DNA of 64,000 bases from Amoebophrya sp. A120 (GCA_905178155.1 CAJINV010000007.1:1328836-1392835); one strand, 5' to 3'; numbered from the stretch's first letter, positions 1-63,272 are shown. Numbers and translations: made by a program. Notes: a model not told the origin generated them from the sequence alone.

Positions 1-1545
1 GACGATGTATCACATGTAAAAATGTCTGGGTCTGGAAGGTTGGAACTTGTGATGCTAACTTTGGATGCTAAAAAAAACTGTATTGCATGACCAGCAAGAG
101 GAGCCCAGTTTGTGCTACGCGGGGAGGGCATTTGTCATGCGGGATAGGCATCAGGAAGGCCTCTAAAAATATGTGATGCTAGATCATGCATTACAGACAT
201 CTTGACTCATGCAAAATATGCATGACAAACCTTGTAAACTTCCAGACCCAGACATTTTTACATTTGATACGATGCGGCCACCGCCTACATGAAAAAATTC
301 GGCTGGAAGGAGGGCAGCGGGTTGGGGAGGGAGCAACAAGGTATGAGAAAAATGAACGGTTGCTTTTTCTTTTTGATAATGCTGGCTACACAATCAAAAC
401 CTATGAAGTCGTCTCTAGCTTGACGACGGCGAAACTGTTCTTCGCGTCGTGTCTCTTTGAGGTGTGATGTCGCAGGTCACGCACGGGGAGGGAGGATCTT
501 CTTCTTCTACCCAGCACAATTCTATCTCCTCTAGTACAACACATGAGGAGAAGAAACCATGATCATGATCCCGCCAGGTATTACTGCCCCGCTGATTATG
601 CGGAAGACAGATCGCGGCGCGGGGACGGTCGTGCAGGGTACGACGATGCCGGCCCGGAAATTCGATCCGAAAGTCGGCCCAAGCACCGTGGTTGTGCTCA
701 TGAACGCAGTCGGACGCGGGGAGGTTATCGTGGAGAAAAATGCAGCTCGATTTACTGCTGCGAGAGGTGGGGATATACTTGTCATGCTGTTTCAAGATCT
801 GATGACAGGTCAGTTGACGGATAATACGAAGCTGCTAATAGTTATACATGATTTTTCAAAGATGCATGGCAAGTGCAGAAAGCGCGGCCTCTGCGCATCA
901 GAACGCTGTGCATATGGCTGAGCTTTCTGTACAGATCAGTACATCTAACAGAGTAAGCATCACACATGATTTCTATGCTTGCACGACCACGAGCCGACCA
1001 GCAGGAATACGCGAGACAAATTTTTCTCTTCTCGATACCCATCGACGAAGATCTGCAGGAGGAGATGACGGAGGAAGCAGGTACAGAAATGATAATGCGT
1101 TCTTGCAAATATGTCTGGGTCTGGTTTTGTGGCATGAGCAGTAGTCTGTATTGCATGAAGCGAATTGATGACGAGTCTTTTTGTCGCGCTGGGAGGCAGT
1201 TTCTCGTTCGATTTACGAGTGAGTCTGCATCTGCACTGACGTCGTAGTTCAAATACTTGTATATGCGTTCATGTTGTCGTACAGAAAAAGGCCTTCTTGT
1301 GTAAAGTTTTGCGAAAAAATTATTCAGGTAAATACGGCAAAGTGGTGTCCTGTGTCATCAAGGAGGCGGCCAAGGACGTGCCCGACAAGGAGTCTGTCCG
1401 GATTTTCCTGGAGTTTGACAGCGTTCAGGGAGGGCAATTTGCCAAGGCGAAGTTTACAAACCGGTATTTCGGCGGCCGCTATGTGAACTGTCTCTTCTAC
1501 GAGCCAACCCTGTACAAAGCCGGACAGTACTTCGAAAAGCTGTGA
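1..1545 (+). CDS. RBM17: Splicing factor 45 (SPF45/RBM17/DRT111-like), G-patch plus C-terminal UHM; 5' partial, multi-exon
   Basis: G-patch MKKFGWKEGSGLGREQQG|GITAPL, then UHM VVVLMNAVGRGEV|DEDLQEEMTEEAG|KYGKVVSCVI...VRIFLEF...RYFGGRYVNCLFY. GT-AG introns 341-577 and 1081-1327; introners 8-269 and 726-1037; stop at 1545. Confidence 0.85.
8..269. mobile_element. Introner, family A (TIR TATCAAATGYAAAAATGTCTGGGTCTGGAA)
   Basis: TIRs at both ends; direct repeat CGATG at 3-7 and 270-274. Confidence 0.9.
726..1037. mobile_element. Introner, degenerate (D-like TIR)
   Basis: TATCGTGGAGAAAAA...TTTTTCTCTTCTCGATA; flanks GAGGT/CCCAT have diverged, but removing the element plus 5 nt restores GEV-DEDL of the UHM. 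Confidence 0.75.
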
Positions 1546-2487
1546 AGTTCATTTTCGAAGGCATATAGCAGCTGGCTGTTCGTCTTGCTGTGTCGGGGGA
1601 GACGAAAGATGTGCTGGCATAGTGCTCTACAACAGCTCGTGACAATAAAGTTATGAACACGCTTGAGCAGGACCAAGCGGCAGCGACAAGAAGTAGCCTT
1701 CCAGATCTTCATGCGACAAAACAGTTATTCATATCCTCCTTCGTGGAGGATTCCTCGAGGAAGAAGTACTTACTTACTACATCAATCCGCCACATCAGAG
1801 TTGTCACTCCGTGGTCGCAGAACTTTGGGGACTGTACTTGGAAGAACGACGACCGCCATGTTCGTTTCTCTGACCACCATCTCGTGAATAAAATCGATCT
1901 GTGTTATATGCCTAGTAAAAATCGCCATCACAACTTACCAAGGTATTATTTCGTCGTGAGTTGCAATTCCGTAATATCTATGTTGTTTCTACCATAATTC
2001 TCGACGTCTGAGACTGAGCGGACCGTGTTCATCAGCTTTCTCGACCCTTTCGTATTTTGTGCAGGAGGAGGACCGACTGTCTTTGTTTGAGTGAACCAAG
2101 GCTTGTTTGTTTGCTTGTTCTGTTGTTCTTCGGCTCGTCGTGTTGCTGCTGTGTCAATTCCACGCGACGTCTTTTGCATTTCGATCGGCAGTAGAACAAG
2201 CCTTAGTATGGCTTGTTTTACATAATTCACAGAACCTGTGTGGTTTGCAATTTGTGTGGGCCGCTTTGTGTCTCATTATGAAAAAATCAATTCATAGGCG
2301 AGGAGGGCTAGAAGGGATTAAAGCACCACACAAGTGGTCAGAGTCAACATCGCATGTGCGTCGACACGTTTGTGCAGCCACTTGACATCTCTGCCCGTTC
2401 AAGAGGGTCTTGCGCGGCGGGGGGTTTTCTACATCGAGAATAAGTAAGTTACGCAGGAGTTTCTGGAGCAAATAAAACTGGCACGAG

Positions 2488-3528: not shown

Positions 3529-6368
3529 TCCACGAACACGCCCATAAACATCGGCCCGGGGAGCTACAGTTCCATGCAATCCACCGCCCCGGAGAAGGTG
3601 ATTCCGAAAAGTCACAACTACCTGGTGCAACGAAGCGAGGAGATCGCGCGGAACCGACGAGATCTGTGGATCCAGAAGCGACTGCACACCGGCGCAGCTC
3701 CGAGTCCGTTCAGCATGATGAATGGGGACAAATCTTTATCGCTCAGCTATACCCAGTTCGGAAACGGCGGTATGTCGGTCCAGCAAGTAGGTGGACCACT
3801 ACAGATGAACCCGCCGATGGTATCAAAATGAAAAATCCCCCCTCCCCATATCAAAACGAAAATTTGTGATGCTGATTTGTGACCACAAATCGGCTTTGTA
3901 TTGCAGAGAGGCACTGCGGCCAGATCCCCAGGCTAGGTAGGGGCGTATGGGTCTAGTAGTTCAGCATGGCAAACGGCCCCCCTTTAGGCCCAGCAGCATG
4001 ACAAATCGCTTCCATAATGGGGCGGAAGCTTCTGCCCTTGTCTTCTTGCAAGACAGATGTGATTTGTGACCTCAAATCCCCAACGCAAATTTTTAGAAGC
4101 ATGCCTTTTCAATATGGGGGGGGGGATTTTTCCTCTCAATAGATGGTGACGAACGTGCCGCAATCGGCGTCAGACCAGCAGCCCGCGGTCTACCCCCCGC
4201 CGATGGGCAGCGGACCGCAGCAGCCACCCATGGTGTACTACTCCGACCCGCCGGCGAACCCCCTGCAGCTTGCAGGCGCATCGAAGAGTAGCCGCACGGT
4301 GGACCTGCATCACGCGCGGGGGGACAACATGCAGCTCCAAGCGGAAAATTATATCAACAAACCGAGCAGCGAACAGCAAGGGGTAGAGCAAGTACAACAG
4401 CAGTTCCAGTCTACTGCTCTCCAGCAGCCACCACCGATGATAAACGGGGTGCAAATTATATCGGGAACGCAGCCCGCGATGTCCAGTTCCTACGTGCCCG
4501 GCGCTGGCCCACCATCTACTTCGGGAGTCTCGCCCGTGGCTGTGCAACAGCACTTGCAGCATCAACAGCACCAGCACCCCGGAGTCACGCAGAGCCACGT
4601 GCCGCGAACGATCAACTACAATGACGATCACGTTTCCCCCCACCAGTCACAGAACTCGCAGTTGCAGGAGGACAAGAATCCGTTTTCAGCTGCGCACCAA
4701 GCCGCGACAGCGGGGTATCACGGCTACGGATCGGTGCCGGAGCCGATGGGCAGCAGCAGTAGTGGTTTTCATGACCACAGTGCTCCGACAAGTCGCAATC
4801 AGCGTCAGCAACTATATGGCCGTACTAACTACGGATTTGTCAAGTAGTCCAAAAAATTTCAGGGTCCGCGCGTGATGGTATCAGAGGAGGCAGCACAGCT
4901 CACGCATAAAGGCCTCCTTGTATTTTTTTGCATCGTCCGATCCTTAAGCTAGCTAGTTAGGAAGGCGGGCCGCTTCCAGTATCCCCGAGGTCCTGGTACA
5001 TAAATTCGTGTCGGAGCGGGGGGCTAGCCCGCAACCCCGAGCACCGGCAACAAGCGGCACAGGCTCCACGCAACGAAAAAGCTTCCGGGAAACGAAGGCC
5101 GTGGCAACCTGGCTGGCAAGACAAGAGCCATTCTTTTAGGACTCGCGACACAGTTCCGACGCACAGTGTCAGGACTCCACGCAAGACGGCTATGCGATCG
5201 TGAGAAAACGGCGCCAGGCCTGACCCCAACAAAAGAAGGGCACTGGCAGCGGCTTCTCCCACAGGCTGGGCGCACTGTTCATGGCCCCCCGCTTGCTTGG
5301 CTCGCCTCGCCTGACACTCACAAACGAAATGCAGGACGACCCGGCTATCGCGCACTTGCATACACCTGCCAAAGCCCCCGCTAAAGATTGCAGGCCACTG
5401 CCTCCGGGGGTGCTTGGGTTGGGTAATTTGCCTGGCGCCCATTGCAGCGGTCCCAATCCTTCAAAAGCGGGGTAGCCGGTGCCCGGCAAAGCTCGGCCCC
5501 CATCAAAGACGTGGCCAAAGCAAAACCTCAGAAACTAAGCAGCCTGCCCCACATCGCGACGGCCCTCGCAAAAAACCCAACGCGGGCGCACCTCCGGGCG
5601 GGCCGGCTAGCGCTAGTGTGGCTGCGCTACTGAAGCGCGGCCCGCCTGGTTCGGCGCCCACTGCTTTATGCAAAAGCAGGTGGGCGCAGCGCAGAAGCAA
5701 AAAACCCGGCAGGTGTGGACTAGGGCGAAAATTGAAGGGGAAGGTGGGGGGCCTGATATTTCCAGCGAAGGGGGGGTGGTGGGTTGAAAAGAGCAGCGGG
5801 AAGACTGGGTCTGCCACGCATCCTCTGTCGAAGGGGCTGCGCGGGACGTGTCGGAAGAACTGCGCAGCACCATCGTGGATGTGACACAGGGCCACAGTTT
5901 CAACGCCTTCTGCCTCGTCGAAGAGTTCGGGGTCTTCACCTACAGCCCCGTCGCACATTGGGAGGGCAAGAAGCTCTGGGAAGCCCCTTGGCTTCTCTTG
6001 GGGGTGCGATTGCCTCCACGCCCAAGAGGTCCTTACGAAAGATTCAAACATGACCCGGGTCCGCAGCTCCAGAAACTGGCGGCCCCAGTAGCAGCCTGCC
6101 TAGTTAACTAGTTCAATGAATCTGCGCACTCACAGCCTCATTAGTGGGCGACGGATTTCGCATAAGCAAAGACAACACGGTGAGGGATACGCGCGGAGAC
6201 CCTGAAATTTTTTGGACCACTTTGAAAATCCGTAGTTAGTATGGCCACAGTGCTCCGACAAGTCGCAATCAGCGTCAGCAACTAGTCCGGGTAGACGCTT
6301 ACGGAAGACCAATATCATCCTCATCCTCTTCCAATCGTAATCTATCCAGCAGGAAAAAAAGTGTGTGA
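3529..6368 (+). CDS. Q/P-rich hypothetical protein with STPG-like repeat, interrupted by an introner and a 1.43-kb TIR element
   Basis: ORFs 3574-3831 and 4143-4847 join (PPM-VTN) after removing 3821-4146. Removing 4815-6284 extends the frame QQL-VRVDAYGRPISSS...KKSV to TGA 6366-6368. Confidence 0.65.
3821..4141. mobile_element. Introner, family B (TIR TATY-N6-AAAAATCCCCCCTCCCCATAT)
   Basis: TIRs; direct repeat GATGG at 3816-3820 and 4142-4146; frame restored. Confidence 0.92.
4815..6247. mobile_element. Non-autonomous TIR element (~55-bp TIR) with 40-bp flanking direct repeat
   Basis: TGGCCGTACTAACTACGGATTT...CCAAAAAATTTCAGGGTCCGCGCGT at 4817-4873 is inverted at ~6189-6247; direct repeat 4775-4814 = 6245-6284; GC-rich interior with no recognisable transposase. 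Confidence 0.8.
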
Positions 6369-6632
6369 GTCTATACCGTCTATAGGCACTAGGAGCATCT
6401 TGACAAATCAGTGCGCCCCCATGACAAAAAAAATTCCAAACTGTTGAGCGCAGCTGGTAGAACGTGCATCAACCCCTTATGAAGAAAGAACAAGGTATAA
6501 AACTTTCCATGATAGTAATCTTCGTTTTGCATGAAGATCATGACATCTGTAGAAACAGTCTTGGTCGCTCTGCATGATAGATAATTGCTTGTACTCACTC
6601 AGTTTTTTCTTGGATGCAAGAACCCTTTTCAG

Positions 6633-7735
6633 ATGCACGACGATCCTCAGTGGATCGGGAGTTTGGTGCAGCAGTACCACCGAGGGGGCAGTGCATCCTC
6701 GGTTGTGCCCGCGCAGCAACTACAGGGCTACAGCTACCACCCGCAGCAGCAACCGCCGGTATTCACATCGCCGACCAGCCGCGCGTTCGATCCGCCGCCC
6801 AGGTTGGTGATGAGTAGTACGGTATCCTATGTAAAAACGTCCCAACATGGGGATTTTGCAACACAAACCTTGAAGTTTTGGGAACCAAGCATGACAAATT
6901 GCAGGCTGTAGTGTAGTGCAGTTTAGCAAGGGAAGCCGCATAACAAATCGATCTCCTTATGCTGTTTACAGCATTACAAGTTCCAAAACGCGATTGATTT
7001 TGCCGATCATGGGATCGCGCATTACAAACGCTCTTGTGCTCGCAGATCTGCATTACAACTCTGGGGTGGGGACGTTTTTACTCAGGATATACGGCCGCAG
7101 CGCCCTCCGCGCAGCCGCAGAGTAGACCGACGTCGGCCTTGCAGCAGTTACGCATCAGGCAGCAGTATCAAATGCAAAAATGTCTGGGTCTGGAAGAATG
7201 CAACTTGTGATGCTGCATTTGGACTCCAAAAAAATCTGTATTGCATGAGTAGCAAAGGGAATGCAATTTTTGCTACGCTGAGAAGGCATTTCTCATGCGG
7301 AATAGGCATCAAAAAGCCCTCAAAAAATCTGTATCGCTAGGGTATGCATCACAGACATGGTGGCTCATGCAAAACGTGCATGACAAGTGTCAGAATCTTC
7401 CAGACCCAGACATTTTTACAGTTGATAAGCAGCAGATGCAACAGCTCGGCCCGGCTGCAGGATCATCTTACGTCGGCGGCACCGTGCACAGAGGTAAATA
7501 CAATTGATGTCATTTTATTCGTTTGATGAAAAATCAAAATGCTTGTCGTGCTTTCGCTTACTACTTTGAATTGAAGAACCTACTTCGGCGGCACGATGAT
7601 TTGATCAGCTACAATTCCGGGGGTTTTATTCGTTTTGCTCTTGACTTTCTTGCCCATTTCTGCTATCAAGGTGCGTCGGTTCCGAATCCGCAAATGCAAG
7701 CGTACGGGCAACCACAGATGCAAGTCGCGAGATAG
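6633..7735 (+). CDS. Q-rich low-complexity hypothetical protein (possibly 3' exons of the preceding gene)
   Basis: Frame continuous after removing introners 6823-7089 and 7166-7427 and GT-AG intron 7494-7670. ATG 6633 is preceded by TTTTCAG, so it may be a splice acceptor. Confidence 0.65.
6823..7089. mobile_element. Introner, family C (TIR TATCCTGAGTAAAAACGT)
   Basis: TIRs; direct repeat TACGG on both sides; frame restored. Confidence 0.92.
7166..7427. mobile_element. Introner, family A
   Basis: TIRs; direct repeat AGCAG on both sides; frame restored. Confidence 0.92.
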
Positions 7736-9346: not shown

Positions 9347-12300
9347 ATGGCTATACTAGCTTCACAGAACGTTCTCCGCACCTCCGGCCGCTCCTCCCGG
9401 CGGCAGAAGAAGGGGATATCCGTGATGACGGCGGTTTTTGGGTCGGTTGTCTTTCTCCTCCTCGACACACAACTCTTCCCTTACTTGTTCGGCGACCAGC
9501 ACGTCCCCCTGACGGCAGATTTTTATATCAAAAAAAATAACTCTCGTCGGGAACAAAAGATGCGAACCATTTATTTGAACGAGAATTCAGTTACGAATCC
9601 TATACCGCAGACGGGGGAGCTGCTGGTCGAAGAGCACCACACGGCAAGAACCAGTACATCGCCCGGAAGTAGCTCTACAACAGCGGCAGATGTTAAAAAT
9701 GATGTCAAAGAGCAGGTGTTGGGAGCACAGCAGGAGTACAACGATGATATTAACGCCAATTCTGGCGCTCCGTCCTTGTTCAACATCGCGTCTTCATTCG
9801 GTAAAAATGGTAAAAATGCTGCTATCACTCTGGAGGAAGAGGAGCTCGAGGTTTCCGGGAACGTGTACGTGTTAGAGATCGCCGTGGTCATCATTCTCTC
9901 GCTGCTCTTCGAGTACTGCGAGGACATGCTCCGCGAGAACCTGGCGAGGAAGGAAAAGGAAGTGGCGCTGGATATTTTGGACTCCTGTTTCGGAGAATTG
10001 ACCGTGCTGGGCTTCATCGGTATTGAAGGTTTTCGCACGACCAAAAACTAGAAGAGGCTCCTTAAAATCATGTTGTATATCGACCTGTAAGGTGAAATAT
10101 CTCAAAAATATTGTGGTTTTTGCAAACGCAAGCTCCGCGTGGATGACCACGTCGTCGAGATTGATGTGAACGTGAAATACTACTCGCTTTTCAAAACTGT
10201 CAATGTCATATACGTACTATCATCCCAGGTCTCGCCGTGTTTATTTCCACGAAAACGGGGGCTGCGACGAGATTAGCGGAGCGGCTAGTGCCCGGCTACG
10301 ACGGCGAGGGGGAAAACCCACTGTCCGAGTCCTTTGAGAATGTGCACATGTGCATCTTCTGCGTGATGATGGTATTCATGTTCCAGGCGGCCACGTTGAT
10401 GTACATCGCGGAAGACTTGGACCGGGTGTGGGACCGATGGGAGTCCATGTCGCCCAAGGGCCGGTCGAATTCTATCGAGGCGGTGCTGAAACGCGCGGGG
10501 TACGTGGACCGCGACGGGAACCGGGTGCAGTCGTTTAGCCCGGGCACTTTCCGCGAACGCATGTGGCACCAGAAAAGCCACAAAATGGTATAGATGCTTG
10601 GAATTTGCACTTCGTATGAACCCATGAGTTTAATATTACGCTGTGATGTACTTGTACTACTAGTCGTGTATGTGCAGTCGTGAAGTAGATTTGATGAAGA
10701 TGCCTTTGACAAGAACACCGTAGATACCAATTTGTTTCATCTACCACGACAATTTCTTCACGACAGATGGTTTTGTGGCACGGGCTCCGGCATTTGTTTT
10801 GCTATCCGGTGGCGATCGACGAGGACGAAAATCATTTGTCCGACATTGTGGAGGTCAAGGACCCGGCCTCCTTCGATTTCCGGATGTATTTGTCCAGCAA
10901 GATGGGCCAGCTTTTGACGGATCTCGTGGAGGTCGACAACCGCACGTGGCTCTTCGCGCTGGTGGTCGTGGTGCCGTTTGTGTCCGTCGCGACCACGGTC
11001 TCCCCGGTCGTCATTATGGTGATGCAAACCGTCATGGGGCTGATCTTCTCCTGTACGATGAATTATATGATTGTTGTTTATAATGAAAAGTAAAAACTTG
11101 TGTGCGGCCACTCGATTGGTGGGGGGGATGGGCGGGTTTACGTTTAATAGAGGAACTATCTATTGCACAAAATCAAAATGAACTTGTTGCGTCGGAACCG
11201 GAAGTTGTTGGTTTTTTTGGATTGCGGCTGCTCAGTCTTTTCTACTAGTGGTACTCAATGAAAAGCATGATGAAGATGTACTTCATGTACGTTGGCTTCG
11301 ATTTTTAATCCAAAACCAAAACAGGTATTTTCGCGTGGCTGCTTTCCGACCTAACGCGTGTGGAGTACAACCTGTGCCCGCAGCTGGGCGCGGACGCGCC
11401 GGAGTGGCTGGAGTACATGGCGGAGAAGGAGTTCAACACGATGAACAACGCAGACAAGATATCCTGAGTAAAAACGTCCCCACGACCCCAGAGTTGTCAA
11501 GATGGGGACTTCGCAACACAAACCTAGAAGTTCAGAGAGTCACGCATGACAAGTCGCACTGCTTAGTGTAGTAGTGTCAAGCGGCAATCTGCGGCCATGG
11601 TGCAATGGGGGGGAAAAGTGTGTCGCATTTTGTTTAGCATGACCAGTCCGGTCGTGTGGGGACGCTTTTACTCAGGATACAAGAAGGGTCGCAAAATCGT
11701 CGCGATGGGCGTCACCCGCGAGTCCCAGGCGCCGGGGGCAGAGCACATGGCGAAGGGGGGACTGCTGAACGGGGACGGCATGAGCGCCGAGTTGCGGGAG
11801 CGGTTGCTTTTCAAAGAGTCCACCACGCTTGCGAGCCTGATGGCGCCGGTGCACTTCCGGATCCTGGAGCGGCGGTCCGAGCTGGAAAAGAAGCAGATGG
11901 AGAGCAGCAGCAAGGACGAGTACTTGGAGAAGGTCGCGGAAGAGATGGGGGAGAACAAGCGTCCGCTGCACGTCCGGCTGCTCGGCGGCAAGGAGGACTA
12001 CATTCCGCACGAGCACTATCCAAGAAAAAAACTGTGTTATTGTAACTTTCTTTGGCTGGTGACAGCATCGCAAATTTAGATTTTCTCTACGTGACAGAGA
12101 AAACCTGTCATGCGTGGCCCTTCTTGTAAGAGAAAACACACATGAAGAGAAGACTTCATGGCTGTCTGGCATGACAGGCGTAACTCTGTTGCATGTTCTG
12201 CATTTTTACAGAGTTCCACTCACAGAGTTTTTTTCTTGCATAAGCACGACCGGCTGTTCCACTTCCACGAGTTCGGGGTCGGGGTGTGCAACCAGATCAT

Positions 12301-15300
12301 GCGTACCATGATGTTCATGGAGGCAATCCTCGTCGCGTCGCTACTGGTGGTCCTGGTCGTCTTCCCCAAAGGCCCGGTCGGGTGGGGCTTGTTCATCTTC
12401 TCCATGCTCCAGTGGCCGTTTCAGTTGTTGGTGTTGCTACCGAAGATCATCACGAAGTTATCGCGAGGAAAATTGCCCCCTCCCCCAAGGTTGCAAAAAG
12501 TTGTGATGCGAAGTTTCCAAATGAAAAACTTTGCATGAAAGGAGTATGGATCTTTCTGATGCAGAGGCTAGGCGTGTTGCGCATCGCTTGCATGACAAAC
12601 GCCGCTCTTGCTGGGATCTTTTGCAATACAAATTTCCGCTATTCACGATCGAAAATCAGCACGCTGATTGATGCAAGAGGGCGAGTGTTTCACTTGGAAA
12701 GGTTTGCAATACAAATGCTTTCAAGTTCGGGGGTCGGGGCATTTTTCATTGTAATAGAAGTACTGCATCGTGTCCTCCATCGAGTGCTACAAGGACCACG
12801 AGCTGATCAACAAGGTCACGTTATCCGTGAAGGAGCGCCGCCTCCGGGAGGCGGTGTCCCTGATGCAGATGGTGAAGCTGCGCGGCCGCATCGAGCGGCT
12901 GGGCGGGCACCGGTTGTCCAAGCAGAAATTCGACGAGCTGTCCGAGAAATTCGACCACTTTTCCGAGGACAAGCTATTACAGTGCACAACTCCCCCTCGT
13001 TCTCATTTCTCATGCAAAACACCAACTCCACGCTTTCCCTCCTGTCACTATTATTTTTGGTAGCCCAAATCGCACTATGCCCCAGTGCAATTTGACATGA
13101 TGATACGTTTGCTGCCTTATGCTGTGCTCCTTTTCTTTGGCGCTAGCAAGGCAATAAGATTTCATTCTCATGTCTGATCGGCAAGATACTCTTCATCTTT
13201 TTAAATATTTTTAAGTGCTAAAACATGATATTTGTTGGGTGCCTCGCTTTCTTCTGCGCCTTTTTCCGCTGGGGCTCGCTTTCTTCTGCGCCTTTTTCCG
13301 CTGGGGCTCGCTTTCCCGCTGGGGCTCGCTAAAACATGATATTTCCGTCTTCGGGTGCCTCGCTTTCTTCTGCGCCTTTTTCCGCTGGGGCTCATCTTTG
13401 CATGACATCGGAGAATATCTCAATATAGAAACAGGGCTAGTAGAAATAAGTAAAAGTAAAAATTTTATTGGTTTACGTAACCGGGGGGCGGCTTGATGTC
13501 TGCGGCGGATGATGACAGTGTGCACACTCCTACAAGTATATGGCTGCCGGGCTGCTTCCCGGTCGGTCTAGTACAAATAAACATTTCGCCACTGATCCGC
13601 TAAACACCTTGCTGCCAGCCCCGCCCGCTCGGGGGTTAATTATCTCTAGACAGGGCACCAGCTGCGGTTGTCCTTTAGGGCGTTCGAGTCTAGATAAAAA
13701 ACTACCATGCGTAAATCTTCAATTTTGCATGGGCTCTTGGTGGCTGCTTCCACCGCGGGAGAGTATAAAAACGCAAAACATAAGTCATTGACCACTGGGT
13801 CGCTGTGACGCCGTGCCTGCACGCACCATCAGAAGTGCGACGAGGTGCCAATCGTGTTGATGCACGCACCATCAGAAGTGCGTTGATGCGCGAGGGTCGT
13901 GAATGAATGAATGAATTTGTAAGCTTATCGGCCGTTGTGCCATCGGGACTTCCTGCCCGCTGACCACCAATGTCATGCAAAACCGGCATTCGGGCTGATC
14001 CTGATGCTTGTATTGCTGTTCATGCTATACAAATGAGGGGGAGGGGGAGTTGTGCACTGTTATACAAGCAGCGCCACATCGAGAAGGCCTTCGTCCACAT
14101 GGATTTCGACCACTCCGGGCAGATCGGGGTCGAGGAGCTGGAGAAGTTGATGTCCTCGATGAACATTCTAGCCAATTCCGACGTGCACAAAAACGCGAAG
14201 CAGCTGGTGCACATGGTCGACATGGACAAGGACGGCATGGTCGATTTGACCGAGTTCAAGGTCCTGATGGCCCTCGCGTACGAGAAGCAGGACCCGATGG
14301 AGGAAATCCAGGACTTCGACAAATTTTTCGACCTCATCGACGTGGACATGGACGAGGCGCTCGCGTTCCAGGAACTCGCGCAGTTCTGCCGCGACAACTT
14401 CGCCATCCCGATGAACAACGCCGACATCGGGGAGCTGGTGTACCGCTGCTTCCGCACGGTGAAGGCGGAGTTGACCCGGGACGATTTTATCGTTTGGATG
14501 CGGTGGCTGCAGGACTGCGAGAAGGGGCAGATGAGCGAGGACGCGATGCGGGTGGATCGCGGGTTCGGTTTACTGTGAGGAAAAATCCCCCCTCCCCATA
14601 TTCAAAAGGTAGGTTTCTAAAAATTTGCGATGCGGGTTTGCGACCACAAATCCTGTCTCTGTTGCAAGAAGGCAAATTGAAAGAACCCGCCGCCTTATGG
14701 AGGCGATTTGTAGTGCTGTTTCACCTACATGGCAGGCCTCTGTCATGCTGAGCGCCTACAGCAAAACACCTCTACGCAGGCTGGGGCTTTGCCTCTAGTG
14801 CTTCACTGCAAGACAGGGCTGATTTCTGTACACAAATCCAGCAACAGAAGTTTCCGTTTCAATATGGGGAGGGGGGATTTTTCACTTTGATACGGTTCCG
14901 GCTCCGATCTGGACACGCCGGACGAAAACGTGGACCAGTCCGCCAAGGGGTTCGACCACGGCATCCAAGCGCCACTGCACGGCCACCACAAGAGCAGCGA
15001 CTTCGACGCGGACGGCGTGCGCACCTCGAAGCACCGCGACGACCCGCGCGAAGCGTCGACGGACGAAGATATCCTGGAGGAAGATGCTGACGAAACGCAA
15101 AGGCGAAGAACAAGTAACTCCTTCTTCTGGCGCAGCAGCGATGCGCCTGTGGTGGGAACAGGCGAGAACGCGCCCGCGTCGAAATCGCACCGGAAGTCAA
15201 CGAGGTTGAACAAGCGGGAAAGTGTGGGTAATGGCGCGGCGGTGAACATCAATGATGCTGTCGTTGTTCCAGTGGCGCGAGGGGGCGCAAGTCAACAAAC

Positions 15301-18048: not shown

Positions 18049-18511
18049 TGAGGTCACCGAACGGTTCTAACCAGGGAGTTTCTTTGCCACCTCCCGTGAA
18101 AAACGACCGGCAGTTTTGAAGCCTGTAGAGAGTTTTTTTGCATGAAAAAGATTCCAGCGTGCAAGCCTGTTTGGCTTTGTCGGCACCGAATCGCAAGCGG
18201 ATTCTATCGGTCGCCGCTTGAAAAAACGACGCAGGGGAGCCGGCAAAAGGGGCGCCCTTCGGAGGCGCCCACCGCCTTGGTTTCTGGCGATTTGGGGCGC
18301 CCAAAAGGGCGCCCGAAAAAAACGCGCCCAAAATCAGAACAGCGAAACAGCATGACACGGCCGCGATTTCGGAGCATTTTGGGCGGCCGCGAAAGCGGCC
18401 GCCTTTTCGCCGGTTTCAGAGCCTGGGAAGCTTTGCAAAAAGCGCGGGCGAGAAAAATAAAAACGCAAAAAAGAAAAAGCGCGCCAGACGCGCAAAGCCA
18501 ACCCGCATGCT

Positions 18512-40400: not shown

Positions 40401-43119
40401 TTTTTTTATATAAGTAGGCAAAAGTTGTAGTCACGCGTCCGACTGCACTCTGTGAAAACCGTTAACGTTATACTCTTTTTTGTTTGATACTTCTCCAAGT
40501 TCGACTGCAACATGAGGCTGTCCGGGCCGCTGGTGGAGGAGATGGAGGCCGCGTGGGAACTCACGCACGAGGACGAGCGGGTGGGGCTTTCCTTCATGCC
40601 CAATGTGTGCTGGGCCGCGGACGTGCACGACGAGAAGCGGTCGGCGTGCGAGATCGCGGCGAGCTGCGCCATGTGCTGCGGCATGAACATCGCGCCGTTC
40701 TCGATCGCCTTCGTGTCCGGGTCCCTGGCCAGTGCCATCAAGGCGGGCTACACCAGCCCCACGCTGCTCCCCGAGGACGAGATGCTGTTCACGAAGCGGG
40801 CCGTGATGGTGCCGCACTCGCGCACGGTCCGCCTGTACTCCCGCGTGATGAAGACGTTCTACCCGGCCGAGTGCAGCTCCTACACCTTCGTGTTCGGCGT
40901 GTTCTGGCCCAAGTACAAGCGGTGGTTCGCCGGGTGGCTCGAGCTCCACGCGTACATGTTTTGCTGGCTGGTGCTCGGCCCCCGCTTGGCCTCCATGCAC
41001 GACGAACACCCGCGCCGCCGCAGCGTGTACTGGCCGCGCGCCTGGTTCATCTTCTTGATGAGTGTCCTCCGGAAGTACATGTGCATGGTCGCCGCCGTGG
41101 GCGCCATCCCGATGACCTTCGTCCACATAAGCGCGTGGAACGATTCCGATCACTACCTGGACTACGGGCGCGGGAACTATCACATGGAGGTCGAGGACTG
41201 GCTCTACGAAATCTTTGCCACGAACCCGTCGTTATCAACTGCAAATATCGATATTCGCGCTGGATGTCTGGAACATTTTTTGCCGAGTTTGTCATCGACA
41301 AATTGTACATGACGCGCTCCCGCAATTTTCATGTTGCCTGCGATGCATGCTCTAGCATCAACAACATAGCTTTTATTGCGAAGCAGGTTTGCAGCCCATG
41401 CCTGTCCTGCAGGAGAAATAGTTCTTCTTGGCTACTTTCTAAGTGCCTTTTGCTGCTCATGCAGTACGTCGTGTTTTTGTATGATAGAAGCGCCATGATC
41501 GCAAGGGGGCGCCGCCATTCTTTCCAGATCGGAGGACATAGTATTTTTGCAATGCATAGTCGCACGCGTACATGACGGAGGCGTACGGATATCCCCTGTC
41601 GGACGAGTACATGCGGTCCCTTATCCTGCGGAAAAACGCCCCCACCCCATAGTTGTCATGCAAATCTGCATGCTCAAAGTGTTTGTCATGCCGAGCCCCA
41701 TGAGAAGCGATTTCTAGTTGTGTTTTGGAATTTGTTATGCTCCAATCAGCATAATAGGCTAGATCTGTGATGCTGCTGAACTAGCTAAACAGGACTACAC
41801 TACGAAGCCAACTTTGTCATGCGCAACGGCCAAAGCTTCTGCATTTGTCTAGCAGATTTCCCATTTTGCCTATGGGGTGGGGACGCTTTTACCCAGGATA
41901 GCCCTCCAGAACTACCGCCGGGCCCAGTTTCAAACGATGCTGGTAGCGGTCGGGACTTTTTTCGCCGTGATCACCGCCTTCCGCTCGCTGCGGAAATTCT
42001 ACCTGGCTTTCCCAGGGGTCATGAAGTTCAACGCCTGGGCTTTCTTCAAGGGCTTTCTCGTGACGGGGCCCATGAGCTTATTGATGACGTTCGCTCTGCT
42101 GTACACCTACCTGAAACACGGGCTTTTGAACGAGCCGATGTTGCATTCCGCGCAGGGAGATACGGTGGCGGCCATGCAGAAGGGCGGCGCACCATCTTCC
42201 GCGTCGCCGTCGGGCGACAAGCCCTCGCAAGAAGGAACAAGAACTTCTGCGCAAAACGTCGCACAACCGGCGCAAGAACTGCAAAGCGAACAAGTGCAGC
42301 CAGAACAAACGACGCCTATCCCGTGGAAAAACGCCCCCATCCCCATACCTGTCATGTAAATCTGCAAGCCTGAGAGAGCTGCTTCTCTTTCTCATGCGCA
42401 GCCCCATGAGGAGCAGGAGGGAGAGGAGGAGCATTTATTTCCATTGCTATCCTCTGGAAGTTTCAAGTTTGTCATGCTCGAATCAGCATACGCAACCTGC
42501 GTGAGGATTTGTGGTGCCGCTTAGGTTTATTCGCTAGCTAAACAGGATTAATGCACGACTGCGAGCTCAGGTGACCATTTGTCTTGCGCAACAGCCAAAG
42601 CAAACCTCGGTTGTTGATTTGTGTAGCAGAATTCCTAGCTTCGTGGCCCTGGAGTGGGGACGTTTTTGCTCCGGATAGCTTCACCTGCTGACGTCCTTCC
42701 CAGGGAGTCCCAGCAGTCTCAACAGTCGTCCAAACCAGCAGAGCCACAACATCTGGCGGTCCCCATGCCCCAGGTGCAGGTGGACGCAGAGAAATTGGAT
42801 GCAGAAATACGTTATGCATTGCAAATATGTCTGGGTCTCCTGGATCTGGAAAGATTGGAACTCGTCATGCAAAGTCTCGATCTTTGCAAAAAAGTCTGTG
42901 TAGTTGCATCATGAACTGCACCAAAAGTTGGCCTTTTCTTGCTAGGCAAAAGGCGGACTTCTCATTCGCGGTCGGCGTCAGGAGGGTCTCGCAAAATCTG
43001 TGATGCTTCTGTGCGCATTCCAGAGCGTACTCGTGGTCCGCGAGATGCATGACAAATAATCTTGCTTTCTTCCAGACCCAGACATGTTTGCAGTGCATAT
43101 ACTTACCTCGTATATGTAA
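37401..43119 (+). CDS. Membrane-bound GT2-family (GT-A fold) glycosyltransferase-like protein
   Basis: HYKEPEEQLYTLCENLA, LLIGMEK, HTLRPGEIPGTGSN, SKFDCN, LLPEDEMLF, YKRWFAG (QxxRW-like), flanking TM helices. Assembled across 7 introners; 3' end uncertain. Confidence 0.7.
37669..37927. mobile_element. Introner, D-like
   Basis: TATCCCGAGAAAAA...GTCTCAGTCTCA / TGAGACTGAGAC...TTTTTCTTGCCTATA; direct repeat CATCA/CACCA; FFGI-TPLM restored. Confidence 0.85.
38200..39543. mobile_element. Long introner, family I-like, 1344 bp
   Basis: TATCCAACTGCACAAG.../...GAGTTGTGCACATGGATA; direct repeat GCACC/GCAGC; DQKH-HPQVHKQ restored. Confidence 0.8.
38370..38830. repeat. Array of CCTTCAGAAG / CTTCTGAAGG units in both orientations inside long introner
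   Basis: More than 15 copies of the near-palindromic CTTC(A/T)GAAG core separated by A/T runs. Confidence 0.85.
40299..40489. mobile_element. Introner, family H (TIR with GTTAACGG)
   Basis: TIRs; direct repeat CTTCT; VIF-SKFD restored. Confidence 0.9.
41233..41558. mobile_element. Introner, family A (diverged)
   Basis: TATCAACTGCAAA.../...TTTGCAATGCATA; direct repeat GTCGT/GTCGC. Confidence 0.85.
41622..41900. mobile_element. Introner, family C
   Basis: TIRs; direct repeat TCCCT/GCCCT; RS-LQNYRR restored. Confidence 0.9.
42317..42677. mobile_element. Introner, family C (diverged)
   Basis: TATCCCGTGGAAAAACGCCCCCA.../...TGGGGACGTTTTTGCTCCGGATA; flanks ACGCC/GCTTC diverged; element plus 5 nt keeps frame. 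Confidence 0.8.
42813..43099. mobile_element. Introner, family A
   Basis: TIRs; direct repeat TACGT/TACTT. Confidence 0.88.
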
Positions 43120-44713: not shown

Positions 44714-47358
44714 ATGGAGGCACAAAAAAAGGAAAGCGTCGCGAGTAGCGGCAGCGGCGGCAGCAGCATCGCCGAGAAGCTACGCAACAACATTCAACGG
44801 TTCGACTTCATCACGGACACCGTGGACGTGAGGGCACTGCCGACGAGTGACGTGCACCTGCGCGTAGTGCTGAACTCGGTGATGCCGGCGCTCGCGCTCG
44901 GGCTCGTGCTGTCCGGCGCCGGAAGCTGCACGTGGTTCATCCACCTCGGGCTCGAGACTTGCGGACGGGTCCAGCAGGGTTCTCCGTCGGCGCCGGAAGG
45001 GGACATTGGTGCCCCCGGACCAGGTCCGGGCGCGGTGGACTGGCAAGTCCGCTTGGACTGCACATCTACCTTGCTGTTTGGCATACCGATGAGCGCAGTG
45101 AAGGCCTACAATTTGCTGACGACGACGTTCATGGTTCTGGGCATGTTCTCGGCTTGCCTGTTCGCGGGCGGCCTGAGTGACAGCCGTGGGCGGCGCGAAA
45201 CCATGCTGGACTTCGGCGTGTTCGGTGTTTTCGCCCACCTCTTCACGGCCTGCAGCTTCAACTGGCCAATGTTCTTCCTCGGCCGATTTGCGCAGGGGTT
45301 CGCGGTGGTAGGCGCGGCCGGGGTGGCGCCAACCTACATCGCGGAAGTGGTTCCGGCGGAGGAACGCGGGAAGTACGGCACCTGGTTTCAGATGATGGTG
45401 GTGATTGGCATTCTCGTGTCCACGCTTCTCGCTCTCGTGTTTACCTCGCCACAGGAGGAGTGGACAAATTTGAAAGCCGCCGGACCACTGGACTTCGTTG
45501 CCAAGAACGACGATGGTGCAGTTGATCCAACTGCCGCGTCGTCCTCATCTCTCTTGCAGTTTTACTTTGGGGGCAGTGCCACTTTTGCCGACAACGCTGG
45601 TGTCCCGCAAGCCAATGTTGGAACAACTACAGCGAGCACTACGTGCGTGGGCCGCGGCTCCACCACCATCACGCCGGGGTGCCTCGACCCGTCCTCAAGT
45701 TTTGCGCAGAAGAACGGTGGACCACAAAGCCAGCACTTACCGCTGTCTCTCGATGATATCGCGCGTTCCTACTACTTTCAAGCGCACGTGTGGTGGCGGT
45801 TCATTGTTGGGCTTCCGGCGGTGCCGATGATGTATGCCGTGCACCAATGGATGATCAATTTGCGGGCGTTGGAGAGTCCGAAATGGCTGGAGAGCAAGAA
45901 ACGATTCGACGAGGCGGAAGCAGCCTACGAACTCCTGATGCCGACGTATGGCCAGGCCAGCATCGCAGGCTTGATCAAAGACGAAACGGCCGCCATTGTG
46001 GATAATTCCATTCTCCGCAAGTCGGACCGCGTCTCTGAGGAGTCGGATCATTCTTTCGCGGCGCGCTTGTTCGATCCCCTAAACTTGCGTCAGCATGGAG
46101 AAAGCGTTGTGGGGATCTTGTTCGACCCGCTGGATATGCATCCAGATGGGGTTTCTAGCGCTTTGAGGAAGGATGTGGAACATGACGGCGCGGTGGAGCA
46201 AGAACAAGCCGAGCAGCACGGCATCATGTGGGCCTTGCAGAATCGTCGATTCAGGAAGGGGGTGCTGATCGGCTGCGGTCTGGCCTTGACGCAGCAATTG
46301 ACGGGCATCAATTTGATGATCACGTCCGCGAAATCGGTGTTCGAACGGTTTGGCAGCGACAAGGCGAGCTACTTTGCCACGGGTCTGATGTTGTGGAATG
46401 TGCTGCTGACGCTGCCGGCCTTTTGGCTGATGGACTCGTGGGGTCGCCGGTCCCTCCTGCTGCTGAGCGCGGTGCTGACCAGCGTCACGATGACCCTCAA
46501 CGCGGGCATGGAGTCCTACGGCCACTTCTTTCCCTACGGTCCGCAGCGGCCTTTAAGCCCCATGTGCGAATACGTGGTGGTAGCCATGGTGTTCGTGTAC
46601 CTGGCCGGATTTGCGCTGGGCTGGGGGCCGGTGCTGTGGGTGTACCTCGGCGAACTCTTCCCGCAGACGATCGCTGCCGGCTGCTCTTTCGGCGCGCTGC
46701 AGATCAACATGGGGATTCAGATCCCGTTGCTGTTTGTGCTGGGACTCTACATGGACGAGCCGTTCGTTCTGTACATCAGTTTTTCCGTCCTCAACCTGCT
46801 TTCCCTCGCTTTCGTGTACTTTTTCATCGTGGAAACGAAGGGAGTGGACGTCGAACGCAGTCCGCTGTACATATCAAATGCAAACATGTCTGGGTCTGGT
46901 TCTGGAAAGGTTATTAAACCTGTATTGCATTTTTTCGCATTCCTGAAAAATCTGTATTGCATAAGCAGCAAATCAAGCGCCACACTTTCGTCATGCAAAA
47001 ACGCATTTTGTAATGCGTTCTGCGCATGAGAAAGCGTTTGAAACATTTGTCATGCTGCACTGCACTTACAGGCACAGTCAATCATGACCATTTTTCAGCG
47101 TTACAAGTTTCCAGACCCAGACATATTTGCAATCCATAGTACATGTTGGGCGACGATGAAGAGGATGCGGATCATCGTTCGACCCTGGCGACGAACGCAA
47201 GCGGCGAGCAGGAGAAACAGTTTTTGTTTTACGGCTCCACGTCCAGCACTTTTTCTCCGTTTCCGCACCAGAAAAGCCTCGTTGGACCGGACAACCAACG
47301 CCCAGCGGTGAATGTTCACACGGAAAATAGTGATGTGCTGGAGGAGGGCGTCTATTAA
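44714..47358 (+). CDS. MFS sugar porter (hexose transporter-like)
   Basis: SDSRGRR, GRFAQG, YIAEVVPAEERG, ESPKWL, QQLTGIN, DSWGRR, GWGPVLW...GELFP, VETKG. One introner near the C-terminus. Confidence 0.92.
46872..47138. mobile_element. Introner, family A
   Basis: TIRs; direct repeat GTACA; SPLY-MLGDD restored. Confidence 0.93.
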
Positions 47359-60668: not shown

Positions 60669-63272
60669 ATGCTACCCATCCGTTTCTCCACATTCCTCCT
60701 CCTCATCTGGTATGTCGCGTTTCTTCTCTTTGCCGTGTACTACAATTTCACCGTGTCTTGCGTGATCGGGGGCACTTGTTACCAGCGGCACGTCCAGATT
60801 CCCTACCCCGAAGGAACCTTTTCCGGACACCGCGACATCCGCTTCATTCTTGCGGATGTCGCCTGCCAGGAGTCATGCTCAAAAATCTTCGCACAATTGC
60901 ACGGCGTCAACGCAACCAGAACTACAGAAGTACAAGCGTCTATGGGGAGTTTGCCTTCGCCAGCGGGATCATATGAGAACTTCACCGGAGATAAAAAATT
61001 TGTAGCACGACGAGAAGCCAACGGAACCATATCAAGAAACGTCACGAAAAATGCCACGAACTGGAGCGCGGATTTCAACCTGTACGTCCCCAAAGACTAC
61101 GTCATATGCATTGCAAATATGTGTCCTGGGTCTGGAATTTTGACCCGCGAATTCTTGCAAAGACAAAACTATATTGCATGTCTCCAGACCCAGACATGTT
61201 TGCGCTGGATACGTCGAGGCGGTGAACGACAAGATCCCCGCCTACCGCGATAAGTTCGCCGTGAATGACATGGGAGTGTCAGGATTGAAATCGTCAAAGT
61301 TGAAATGATTTGTCATGCATACAATGCAAGGTGGCGTGCGCGTGCCTGTCTTGCCGGGATGGCGAGTGAGGCGGATTGTGAGCCTATTTAGGGTTTGGCA
61401 TAGAGATGCTAAAGGGGCACGACAAAAGCAGTCTTCTGCGCCCAAACAGCATGGCAAACTGGATTTAGACGGTTGCGAAATTTGTCATGCACCGCTTGAA
61501 AATTGGGCTTCCAACTGGTATCGATTTCATGCATTACAAGTTATTTCAACTTTGTCAATTTCAATTCTGACGCTTCCATAAATGAAACGGATCTGCAAGA
61601 AGTACGGGACGGGATTGTGGAAGTCCTCCACGACTCCATTCCGGAACGATGGGAGATAGAACGCTTTAACACCATGGTTCCCTCGTTGCGTTTTAGATTT
61701 GGCATCACCATCGCGAAGAAGTGGGCTGGGGAGAATCTTCTTCTACTTCGTGACGAGCAGGGGGAACAAACAGCACTAGAAGAAAAGGAAAAGGTCAAGC
61801 GCGTGTTGCAGAACCTGATACCGAAGCTCCCGGACGAGGATTGGCTCGCAGGCCGGGAGGCGGAAAAGAAGAGCACTCTCCCGTCCATGTTGCAGGTGGA
61901 CGAGGCGATTTCTGCCGGGGCGGTCAAGCCGCTCTGGGAGGTTTCGATGCGGAAACTGGAGGAACACAAATCTGCGGAGGTTCTTGCGAACGTCCTCGGT
62001 ATGATCCAGACTGCGGGAACAAAAGTAGCTGCGCTCACAAGCTCGTTCTTCGAACAAAACAAAGCAGTTTTTCGAAAAGCACACCGATCCCTACAAGCCG
62101 CAGCACGAACTTTGACGCTGAATTTGTATGATCACCAGTCCCACACTTCCTGCAACCGGAACTGCCAGCAAGTTATCGCCTTGCAAAACTCGATGGAGCG
62201 GATTCCGGAGCAGATGTTTGTCTTAAAGTACTACGGCAGGTGGGCGTTCCTCCCGGTCTTCGGCCTGCACGAGTTCTTTTCCGTTTTGTTTTCCCTTGGA
62301 AACATGATTCCGCATCTCCTGTTCTTTCTCTGGTCCATTGGGCTTTGCGGGACAAAGAAGCGGAAAAAAAGTGAACGAGAAATTACAACGCCAAAAACGA
62401 CCTCCAGGGCTTTGGACAATGGGAGATCATCTACTACTACTTCGGTAACTCCGAATGAGAACAGCGTTGCGAACATCAAGAACAGTGTTCTTGATAAAAA
62501 TACAACTCTTGCTCCTGAAGGTGAAAATAGTTCTCCTGCATCTTCTACTGATCCTTCTGATATAATTCCTTCCTTCCCGGGCCACTCCGTGTTCCAATTT
62601 TACCAGCAATTGTGGCACTTTTTCGGCGTGAACCTCTTCCTGCAGTCGGCGCTGTTCCACGCGTACGAATCGAAAGTGACCCTTTTCCTAGACGTTTTCT
62701 CCGTGCAGCTGACGTTCGTAGTGTCGCTCTTCATGGCGCGGCGGCTGCACTTAATCGGTTTTCAGGTCGAGAAGAGGACTGGGAAGCAAGGTTCTGACCC
62801 GGAAAGAGAACAAGGTGCTGTAGAGGACCCGTCGACGGTGAAACGCGAATGCCTCTGCTTCCTTCTCCCGGCCCTTTTTCTGACGTTGTCCTTCAACCTG
62901 TACAACGCGATTGTGCTGGACAACGCGATCAGCCCGGTCGCGGTCGGGATGCTGATTGGAGGTGTGGGCACGACGCTGTTCTTCGCCTTACCCCTCTTCC
63001 ACAACTGCTACAAGAACATTTTGCTCGACGAAGCGGCTTTTCTCGTGGTCATGATCGGGCCGTTCCCGATGGCGTTCGCCTTCGAGGTGTTGGACTTCCC
63101 GCCGAGCGAATTTTTCTACTTGCTGGACGCGCATGCCATGTGGCACTTGGCGACCATCCCGATGCAGATCTGGTGGTGGAGGGTGTTTGTGCATTTGGAG
63201 AAGTGCTTGGTCACCCATGCGAGTGAAGAAACCTCGAAAGATGCGGTGGGTATCAGAAAGAAGAACGAGTAG
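60669..63272 (+). CDS. PGAP3: Per1/PGAP3-family GPI-remodelling protein with long luminal insertion
   Basis: KYYGRWAFLPVFGLHEFFSVLFSLGN, SALFHAYE, FEVLDFPP..LLDAHAMWHLATIP; C-terminal KKxx-like RKKNE; two introners. Confidence 0.85.
61105..61211. mobile_element. Minimal family A introner, 107 bp
   Basis: Both TIRs with short interior; direct repeat CGTCA/CGTCG; frame restored. Confidence 0.88.
61269..61580. mobile_element. Introner, family F (left end CAT variant)
   Basis: Similar to 23837-24153; direct repeat AATGA; VN-ETDLQ restored. Confidence 0.92.

What the first reader, a model, noticed from the sequence alone, without database searches (positions are those of the whole stretch)
8..61580. 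Massive invasion of exons by TIR elements that behave as non-canonical introns (36 introners, ~9 families)
Seen: 36 elements with TAT...ATA-type ends, TIRs and 5-bp direct repeats, all inside coding regions; I saw none between genes. Removing element plus one repeat copy restores frame and conserved motifs (calpain WEDFV-CVF, UHM GEV-DEDL, MLO EH-DRLF), yet most offer no GT-AG pair. Established: introner elements and non-canonical introns with inverted and direct repeats are described in Amoebophrya, but to my knowledge the excision mechanism and mobilising transposase are unresolved. Inference: MITE-like DNA transposons precisely removed from pre-mRNA by a structure-guided route.
Basis: partly seen in the sequence, partly recalled or inferred. 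Interest (0 to 1): 0.92.

Follow-up and report, generated by a model that had tools for sequence, protein, structure and literature searches.

The report
Hairpin transposon introns cut at fixed offsets
These are the already published jumping-gene introns of the marine parasite Amoebophrya: transcript assemblies lack them, and the cut appears to fall one base before and four bases after each element's hairpin, likely set by the hairpin ends rather than by normal splice signals or the flanking repeats.

Summary
Observation confirmed. I count 39 elements (reader: 36), all in coding exons; 9 families plus 11 singletons. 33 have TAT..ATA ends, 22 a perfect 5-bp repeat, and only 1 offers GT-AG in a frame-restoring position. 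Encoded proteins match Amoebophrya sp. A120 at 100%, so these are the introners of Farhat et al. 2021: already known. RNA-like contigs lack element plus 5 nt at 9 elements; DNA-like contigs keep them. New here: imperfect repeats locate the cut. All 11 junctions that bound it fit one rule, intron = N+TAT..ATA+NNNN (-1/+4), and 6343 fits only that. It holds where the repeat has decayed. Beside a 35-bp duplication only 5 nt go, leaving 10 duplicated codons. Nearby GT-AG pairs are ignored at 2 of 2 sites. One public gene model disagrees. The -1 cut matches the host's own GTAY donors, so a relaxed spliceosome is likeliest but untested. No transposase found. I did not find the rule in four literature searches; the paper's figures were not visible. 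The scan earlier noted a similar element in Prorocentrum.

The parts
8..269 (+). Introner, largest family (A); repeat 5/5; in G-patch/UHM (SPF45-like) gene
726..1037 (+). Introner, singleton; repeat 1/5 (GAGGT/CCCAT); GEVDEDL restored only if 4 or 5 left bases are kept
   Evidence: motif label recalled
3821..4141 (+). Introner; repeat GATGG 5/5; a GT-AG pair at element+2 exists but the public protein shows element+5
4815..6249 (+). 1435-bp element, about 58-bp TIR, TAT..ACA, flanked by a 35-bp duplication (4780-4814, 6250-6284); only element+5 is removed, 10 codons stay duplicated
6343..6616 (+). Decayed introner, repeat 2/5 (TAATC/CAAGA); only the -1/+4 cut (CT..AG) gives the public protein
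6823..7089 (+). Introner, repeat 5/5
7166..7427 (+). Introner family A, repeat 5/5
10589..10765 (+). Strongly decayed element, repeat 4/5, may now be a GT-AG intron (untested)
11460..11679 (+). Introner, repeat 5/5, MLO-like/EF-hand gene
12017..12242 (+). Introner, repeat 5/5, splits EH-DRLF
12459..12756 (+). Introner, repeat 5/5
12975..14064 (+). 1090-bp introner: member of a ~220-bp family with an internal insertion; no Pfam transposase
14571..14892 (+). Introner starting TAC, repeat 5/5
23237..23397 (+). Introner, repeat 5/5; RNA contig skips 166 = length+5
23490..23768 (+). Introner, repeat CCGGA/CCGGG; RNA skips 284 and takes base 5 from the right copy
23837..24153 (+). Introner, repeat 5/5; RNA skips 322
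26526..26761 (+). Introner in calpain WEDFV-CVF; RNA skips 241
26857..27135 (+). Introner, repeat 5/5; RNA skips 284
29165..29439 (+). Decayed element, repeat 2/5; public model uses GT to an internal AG instead (does not fit the rule)
29560..29736 (+). Introner, repeat 5/5; merged with the next one in the public model
29749..30016 (+). Introner, repeat AAAGG; the only one whose -1/+4 ends are GT-AG
30262..30582 (+). Introner, repeat 5/5
30683..30964 (+). Introner family A, TCGAA/TCGGA; base 4 from the left copy in the public protein
31020..31319 (+). Introner, repeat 5/5
31835..32097 (+). Introner family A, repeat GGATG; GT-AG at element+2 not used in the public protein
33384..33614 (+). Introner, repeat 4/5 (silent difference, uninformative)
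33664..33928 (+). Introner family A, repeat 4/5; base 1 from the left copy
35265..35579 (+). Introner, repeat 5/5
35658..35969 (+). Decayed family A element, repeat 1/5; element+5 removed in the public protein (3-5 left bases kept)
37669..37927 (+). Introner, CATCA/CACCA; RNA takes base 3 from the left copy
   Evidence: record 11
38200..39543 (+). 1344-bp introner with a nested TIR-like insert; GCACC/GCAGC; RNA takes base 4 from the left copy
40299..40489 (+). Introner, repeat 5/5; RNA skips 196
41233..41558 (+). Introner, GTCGT/GTCGC; RNA contig ends after base 4 of the left copy (indirect)
41622..41900 (+). Introner, repeat 4/5
42317..42677 (+). Introner, repeat 2/5 (ACGCC/GCTTC); RNA keeps bases 1-4 of the left copy
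   Evidence: loose end
42813..43099 (+). Introner family A, repeat 4/5
46872..47138 (+). Introner family A, repeat 5/5, sugar transporter gene
61105..61211 (+). 107-bp introner, CGTCA/CGTCG; database protein P0005 takes base 5 from the right copy
61269..61580 (+). Introner starting CAT, repeat 5/5, Per1-family gene

Best explanation
These are Amoebophrya A120 introners, short elements with inverted ends that are likely non-autonomous DNA transposons; transcript assemblies lack each element plus five flanking bases, and the cut most likely lies one base before the TAT end and four bases after the ATA end. SHOWN: elements are in the DNA and absent from RNA-like contigs; 5 nt go with them; target sites show no base preference; both orientations occur. 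INFERRED, step 1: an integrase-like DDE transposase acting in trans inserts them with a 5-bp duplication. INFERRED, step 2: both cuts are measured from the TIR ends (-1 and +4). 1+4 equals the duplication length, so a normal insertion is erased without the repeat being read. INFERRED, step 3 (about 55%): the catalyst is a divergent U2-type spliceosome that has dropped its need for G+1 and AG, reads N|UAU like the host's own G|UAY donors, and places the 3' cut by distance from the stem base or the T-tract in the 3' TIR.
For: RNA-like run X3 skips length+5 at 5 listed joints and, by record arithmetic or a loose end, at 4 more: 9 of the 22 elements in the stretch; the rest were not displayed. DNA-like run X1 shows 0 contigs at the 5 listed joints, and its contigs run into the elements. 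Register, as number of left-copy bases kept: >=4 at 38200 and 42317 (RNA), at 30683 and 4815 (public proteins), and at 726 (motif); <=4 at 23490 (RNA), 61105 (P0005) and 41233 (indirect); exactly 4 at 6343; >=3 at 37669 and 35658. The outcomes for 4815 and 6343 were written down as predictions before the proteins were fetched. P0003 keeps the 10-codon duplication, and removal of all 35 bases does not match it. GT-AG at element+2 is ignored at 3821 and 31835. In 404 kb of a related assembly, 248 of 339 elements have perfect 5-bp repeats; no base preference; 47 of 50 need removal = 5 mod 3, as do the 4 correctly paired decayed-repeat cases. Family A lies 12:12 in the two orientations; predicted folds pair 13 or more of the first 20 end bases in 32 of 35 elements. 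Of 15 canonical window donors, 14 start GTA and 10 GTAT/GTAC. In Farhat Table S4, all 9 commonest A120 non-canonical pairs start N-T.
Against: Each junction but one gives only an inequality, so a single universal register is assumed. Five of the 11 bounds come from public proteins built from transcript alignments, not from reads seen here, and one rests on a recalled motif. P0001 disagrees at 29165 (GT to an internal AG) and merges 29560 with 29749. X3 is only guessed to be RNA and X1's kind is not on record; contigs drop rare forms, and X1 counts were incomplete. Table S4 may reflect aligner bias inside repeats. A mutation-direction test on 39 mismatched repeats was null (15:15), and the stop-codon test was nearly blind (2 of 48 informative). 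In the predicted stem both the UAU and the T-tract are paired, which a spliceosome would have to open. No call tests the catalyst. No transposase was found.
Confidence: 0.68

Rival explanations
1. Same -1/+4 geometry, but cut by a non-spliceosomal structure-reading nuclease and ligase (tRNA-intron-like, or the unknown euglenid route), releasing linear or circular introns.
For: Stable end-to-end stems and indifference to orientation; available GT-AG pairs ignored; U1 snRNA not detected in A120; Euglena non-conventional introns also use fixed spacers around a stem.
Against: The -1 cut reproduces the host's GTAY donor spacing; A120 keeps nearly all spliceosomal proteins; three elements with changed repeats (6343, 35658, 38200) have AG exactly at +3/+4, though AG is not enriched overall (7 of 39; 6 of 47 in loci).
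Confidence: 0.28
2. Repeat-guided removal: the two direct repeats are aligned and one copy is deleted with the element, crossing over anywhere inside the repeat.
For: 33 of 39 elements have a 4/5 or 5/5 repeat, and removal equals element plus one copy there.
Against: At 4815 only 5 of 35 duplicated bases go; removal persists where 1-2 of 5 bases match (6343, 35658, 42317); at 38200 and 30683 the crossover falls after base 4, not in the longer identical block.
Confidence: 0.08
3. Reverse-transcriptase template switching across hairpins with direct repeats makes false introns in cDNA; real mRNAs retain the elements.
For: Such cDNA-only introns exist (PMC8240250, abstract); all RNA data here are cDNA-based; some X3 contigs carry element sequence.
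Against: 34 of 39 elements have stops in all three frames, so most genes would be dead; frame is restored in 47 of 50; junctions occur without repeats and outside the longest microhomology.
Confidence: 0.03
4. Elements are excised from DNA (programmed elimination or frequent somatic excision) and transcripts come from empty alleles.
For: TIRs and 5-bp duplications are DNA transposon marks; only one DNA-like run was laid.
Against: X1 shows no contig for the five precise joints and has flat 25-30x contigs running into the elements; canonical introns in the same transcripts are spliced normally.
Confidence: 0.03

Closest known systems
Amoebophrya sp. A120 introner elements (Farhat et al. 2021, PMC7789003)
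   Same: Same genome (P0001 and P0003 are 100% identical over the query exons); TAT + 7 nt + AAA inverted repeats, 3-5 nt direct repeats, about 240 nt, non-canonical ends, RNA-supported.
   Different: The paper's Fig. [quoted passage not shown] Here they fit one fixed -1/+4 register that does not need the repeat. Figures 3, S19 and S23 were not visible to me.
A120 introner family 38 (Gozashti et al. 2025, PMC12130899)
   Same: TIR DNA element, TA/TA termini, 5-bp TSD, same genome; classed Ginger, with integrase-like homology.
   Different: About 810 bp with ORF homology; no window element showed a transposase domain; I could not compare sequences.
Euglenid non-conventional introns (PMC12501133, PMC11282704)
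   Same: Non-GT-AG, TIR stem joining the ends, probable MITE origin, fixed short spacers between stem motif and exons (3 nt and 5-6 nt).
   Different: CAG..CTG motif and a purine at the exon start there; TAT..ATA with 1-nt and 4-nt spacers here; unrelated lineage.
IS3EU/GingerRoot and IS481EU DNA transposons (PMC10045372)
   Same: TA..TA termini (IS3EU); TNT..AYA termini and discrete TSD lengths about 10 bp apart (IS481EU: 4, 15, 25), which the single 35-bp duplication would extend.
   Different: IS3EU TSDs are usually 6 bp, IS481EU about 4 bp; here 5 bp; no transposase in hand; no 15- or 25-bp duplication among 339 elements.
Fritillaria and Micromonas/Aureococcus MITE-derived introns
   Same: Transposon-derived introns; in Fritillaria the spliceosome itself adapted to non-canonical ends.
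   Different: Those carry or co-opt defined dinucleotides; here neither end dinucleotide is fixed apart from T at +2.

Membership tests
Amoebophrya A120 introner elements | Located in the A120 genome | tested here: met
   Two window exons are 100% identical to proteins named Amoebophrya sp. A120
Amoebophrya A120 introner elements | Inverted repeat starting TAT, 7 variable bases, then at least AAA | tested here: met
   A at positions 11-13 in 88-94% of ends of 300 elements (TAT was required by the scan); 37 of 39 window elements start TAT
Amoebophrya A120 introner elements | 3-5 nt direct repeat at the junction | tested here: met
   33 of 39 at 4/5 or better; 248 of 339 perfect 5-mers in related loci
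Amoebophrya A120 introner elements | Absent from transcripts, non-GT-AG ends | tested here: met
   9 junctions in RNA-like contigs; GT-AG possible in 1 of 39
MITE (non-autonomous TIR DNA transposon) | Short, TIRs, constant TSD, multi-copy families, no coding capacity | tested here: met
MITE (non-autonomous TIR DNA transposon) | Autonomous partner with the same TIRs encoding a transposase | tested here: inconclusive
   No Pfam transposase in 32 ORFs from long window elements and candidate regions or 27 from long loci elements; only about 0.4 Mb searched; no whole genome held
MITE (non-autonomous TIR DNA transposon) | Empty sites in other strains | not testable with these tools
   The related loci did not overlap the window outside elements; X9 and X10 did not cover the genes
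IS3EU/GingerRoot | TA..TA termini | tested here: met
IS3EU/GingerRoot | TSD usually 6 bp | tested here: not met
   0 of 339 with a 6-bp repeat, 248 with 5 bp
IS481EU | TNT..AYA termini with TSDs of about 4, 15 or 25 bp | tested here: inconclusive
   Termini fit; TSD is 5 bp; one 35-bp case, no 15 or 25
U2-type spliceosomal intron | GT-AG ends | tested here: not met
   At -1/+4 the donors are AT 12, GT 10, TT 9, CT 7, AC 1; AG acceptors 7 of 39
U2-type spliceosomal intron | Lariat intermediate and snRNP dependence | not testable with these tools
   No raw reads of this strain covered the genes
Euglenid non-conventional intron | N3-CDG ... CHG-N5-6 signature | tested here: not met
   Ends are N-TAT ... 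ATA-N4; works like one, is not a member

The most novel reading that the evidence does not exclude
Amoebophrya A120 has a third splicing code: any exon-inserted TAT..ATA hairpin is cut at -1 and +4 from its stem, with no use of GT, AG or the direct repeat. The offsets sum to the transposase's 5-bp stagger, so splicing and transposon are matched and any 5-bp insertion in either orientation becomes a scar-free intron, while longer duplications survive only as 5+3n and add codons.
Probability: 0.55. Interest if true: 0.78.

Novelty: already known. Interest (0 to 1): 0.5.

Why it matters
The elements are published, but how tens of thousands of non-canonical Amoebophrya introns are removed is open, and their borders were reported as variable. 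A fixed -1/+4 rule can be tested at once on existing RNA-seq by using mismatched repeats. It would let the A120 gene models be corrected, and it says where to look for lariats or circles. It also parallels the fixed-spacer code shown for Euglena. If it holds, it explains how a genome tolerates transposon insertion anywhere in exons and gains introns en masse without splice signals.

Tried and rejected
Splicing at -1/+1 (N-TAT..ATA-N, leaving 3 nt): my first idea, rejected by length+5 joints and by P0003 and P0001 at 3821 and 31835. Selection for G at repeat base 5 or AG at bases 3-4: none seen. Mutation-direction test: null, 15:15. Stop-codon test: 2 of 48 informative, both compatible. Four apparent frame exceptions among decayed-repeat elements were mis-paired arms, three of adjacent elements and one inner arm. 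One further mis-called inner arm (L069) that fitted the rule was also dropped. Transposase search in long elements: negative; L064's apparent 2.2-kb copy is two short elements. Family A TIR in viral contigs: 0 matches. Raw RNA runs X9 and X10 laid only 100 and 9 reads, on element ends: uninformative. No listed holder was on record as RNA. No read evidence was obtained for 3400-15000, so 4815 and 6343 rest on the public protein. Candidate regions 18040-19500, 50400-51900 and 63500-64000 show no TAT..ATA element. The third homolog search returned only a distant relative (P0004, 45%), so 41233, 41622 and 42813 have no protein check. Roy et al. 2023 (Curr Biol) is not held.
Full report
1. Observation. 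A scan for TAT..ATA pairs with inverted ends found 20 with TIR score >=22 and a perfect 5-bp flanking repeat; five shuffles gave 0, 0, 1, 0, 0. BLAST and manual reading added decayed copies, for 39 elements and 13,480 bp. Of these, 33 end TAT..ATA; the repeat is 5/5 in 22, 4/5 in 11 and <=2/5 in 6; 28 fall in 9 clusters and 11 are singletons; 34 carry stops in all three frames; 1 offers GT-AG in a frame-restoring position. All 39 lie in coding exons, which make up 57% of non-element DNA (partly circular). Removing element+5 nt gives open frames for the calpain, MLO-like/EF-hand, sugar transporter, Per1 and G-patch genes.

2. Identity. Exon searches returned proteins named Amoebophrya sp. A120 at 100% identity. 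Farhat et al. 2021 (PMC7789003; I read the abstract, sections 10, 11, 12, 16, 25, 32, 34 and supplement passages, not the figures) describe A120 introners that start TAT, then seven variable bases and AAA, with 3-5 nt direct repeats. [quoted passage not shown] The object is therefore known.

3. RNA versus DNA. On 22601-42600 (22 elements), run X3 (guessed RNA; depth varies by gene; it also skips a GT-AG intron) skips 166, 284, 322, 241 and 284 bases at five elements, each length+5. Record coordinates give the same at 37669, 38200 and 40299, and a loose end at 42317. The other joints were not displayed (962 rows hidden). Run X1 (kind not on record, flat 25-30x) shows no contig at the five joints, and its contigs run into the elements; its counts were incomplete. 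Raw RNA runs X9 and X10 did not cover the genes. No reads were obtained for 3400-15000.

4. Where the cut lies. Let d be the number of left-copy repeat bases kept in the mRNA. From RNA contigs: 23490 d<=4; 38200 d>=4; 42317 d>=4; 37669 d>=3; a contig ending at 41231 suggests d<=4. From public proteins, which were built from transcript alignments: 30683 d=4 or 5; 4815 d=4 or 5; 35658 d=3-5; 6343 d=4 only; and P0005 (no source name) 61105 d<=4. At 726, GEVDEDL needs d=4 or 5 (the motif's conservation is recalled). All 11 are compatible with d=4: intron = N+TAT..ATA+NNNN. I noted the predictions for 4815 and 6343 before fetching P0003. The 1435-bp element at 4815 is flanked by a 35-bp duplication; P0003 keeps ten duplicated codons, and removing all 35 bases does not match it. 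GT-AG pairs at element+2 are not used at 3821 or 31835. Against: P0001 splices 29165 from GT to an internal AG and merges 29560 with 29749. That may be a forced canonical alignment or real mis-splicing. Only 6343 fixes d alone.

5. Wider sample. In 153 loci (404 kb) there are 339 elements: 248 with perfect 5-bp repeats, 52 at 4/5, none with a 6-bp repeat. Repeat bases show no preference, and AG at bases 3-4 occurs in 8 of 91 and 6 of 47 oriented cases. A codon model called removal = 5 mod 3 for 47 of 50 perfect-repeat and 6 of 7 4/5 elements. Of 9 called at <=3/5, five were mis-paired arms (four against the rule, one for) and the other 4 fit. 225 of 294 junctions scored as coding, against 7 of 111 intergenic controls. 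Family A lies 12:12 relative to the gene; predicted folds pair 13 or more of the first 20 end bases in 32 of 35 window elements folded. Two DNA-only register tests were uninformative.

6. Mechanism. Mobility (inferred): non-autonomous TIR elements moved by an integrase-like DDE transposase. PMC12130899 (passages; 21 of 58 A120 supplement rows plus family 38) classes family 38, with TA/TA termini and 5-bp TSD, as Ginger-like. IS3EU has TA..TA ends with 6-bp TSDs; IS481EU has TNT..AYA ends with 4, 15 or 25-bp TSDs (PMC10045372, passages). I found no transposase. Removal (inferred): both cuts are measured from the TIR ends, 1+4=5, so the repeat need not be read. Catalyst (untested): 14 of 15 canonical donors in the window start GTA and 10 are GTAT or GTAC, so N|TAT sits in the host's donor register. 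The nine commonest A120 non-canonical pairs all begin N-T (aligner bias possible), and most spliceosomal proteins are present. A relaxed spliceosome, as in Fritillaria (PMC13326754, passages), is favoured at about 55%, a structure-reading nuclease and ligase at about 30%. Euglena's fixed 3-nt and 5-nt spacers (PMC12501133, abstract and section 8) are the closest working analogue. Reverse-transcriptase artefacts (PMC8240250, abstract) and DNA excision are unlikely for the reasons under rivals.

7. Novelty. Elements: already known. The -1/+4 rule and its independence from the repeat did not appear in searches, nor in the passages read of PMC11282704, PMC9860276, PMC11453091, PMC12787238 and two bioRxiv preprints. 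[quoted passage not shown] 2023 could not be seen, so part of the rule may be in print. An earlier scan note (e1-7693921) reports a similar element in Prorocentrum cordatum; I did not test it. Verdict: real, known system, with a new and directly testable boundary rule; interest 0.5.

Noticed in passing
window 1-1545: The first gene is a G-patch plus UHM/RRM protein (SPF45/RBM17-like, label recalled; G-patch confirmed by Pfam), a 3' splice-site factor that is itself split by two non-canonical introners.
   Followed up: partly
window 4780-4814 and 6250-6284: 35-bp duplication around the 1435-bp element (40 bp if the shared CCACA is counted); 35 would continue the ~10-bp ladder of IS481EU TSDs. 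Single case.
   Followed up: partly
window 38357-39331: Nested insert with its own GGGAAAAAAT-type inverted ends and a degenerate 12-20-bp tandem array inside introner 38200.
   Followed up: partly
window 1103-1124, 10589-10765, 29165-29439: Decayed element remnants inside or coinciding with GT-AG introns; a possible route from introner to canonical intron.
   Followed up: partly
window 18040-19500, 50400-51900, 63500-64000: GC-rich, apparently non-coding insertions with internal repeats, no TAT..ATA ends and no Pfam hit in the ORFs scanned (first two regions); possibly other mobile elements.
   Followed up: partly
window 16540-16900 and 21000-21370: Two similar intergenic stretches seen by eye; a dispersed repeat without TIRs. 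Not aligned.
   Followed up: no
window 29737-29748: 12-bp stretch between two introners leaves a 7-nt net micro-exon; the public model skips it.
   Followed up: partly
L056:3329-3608: Element with a perfect 8-bp duplication, lying within a 1031-bp TIR pair (3001-4031) that may be one nested element or two neighbours; L123:74-328 has a 7-bp one in a CTT repeat.
   Followed up: partly
whole window: All 14 gene models lie on the + strand, matching the unidirectional clusters described for Amoebophrya.
   Followed up: no
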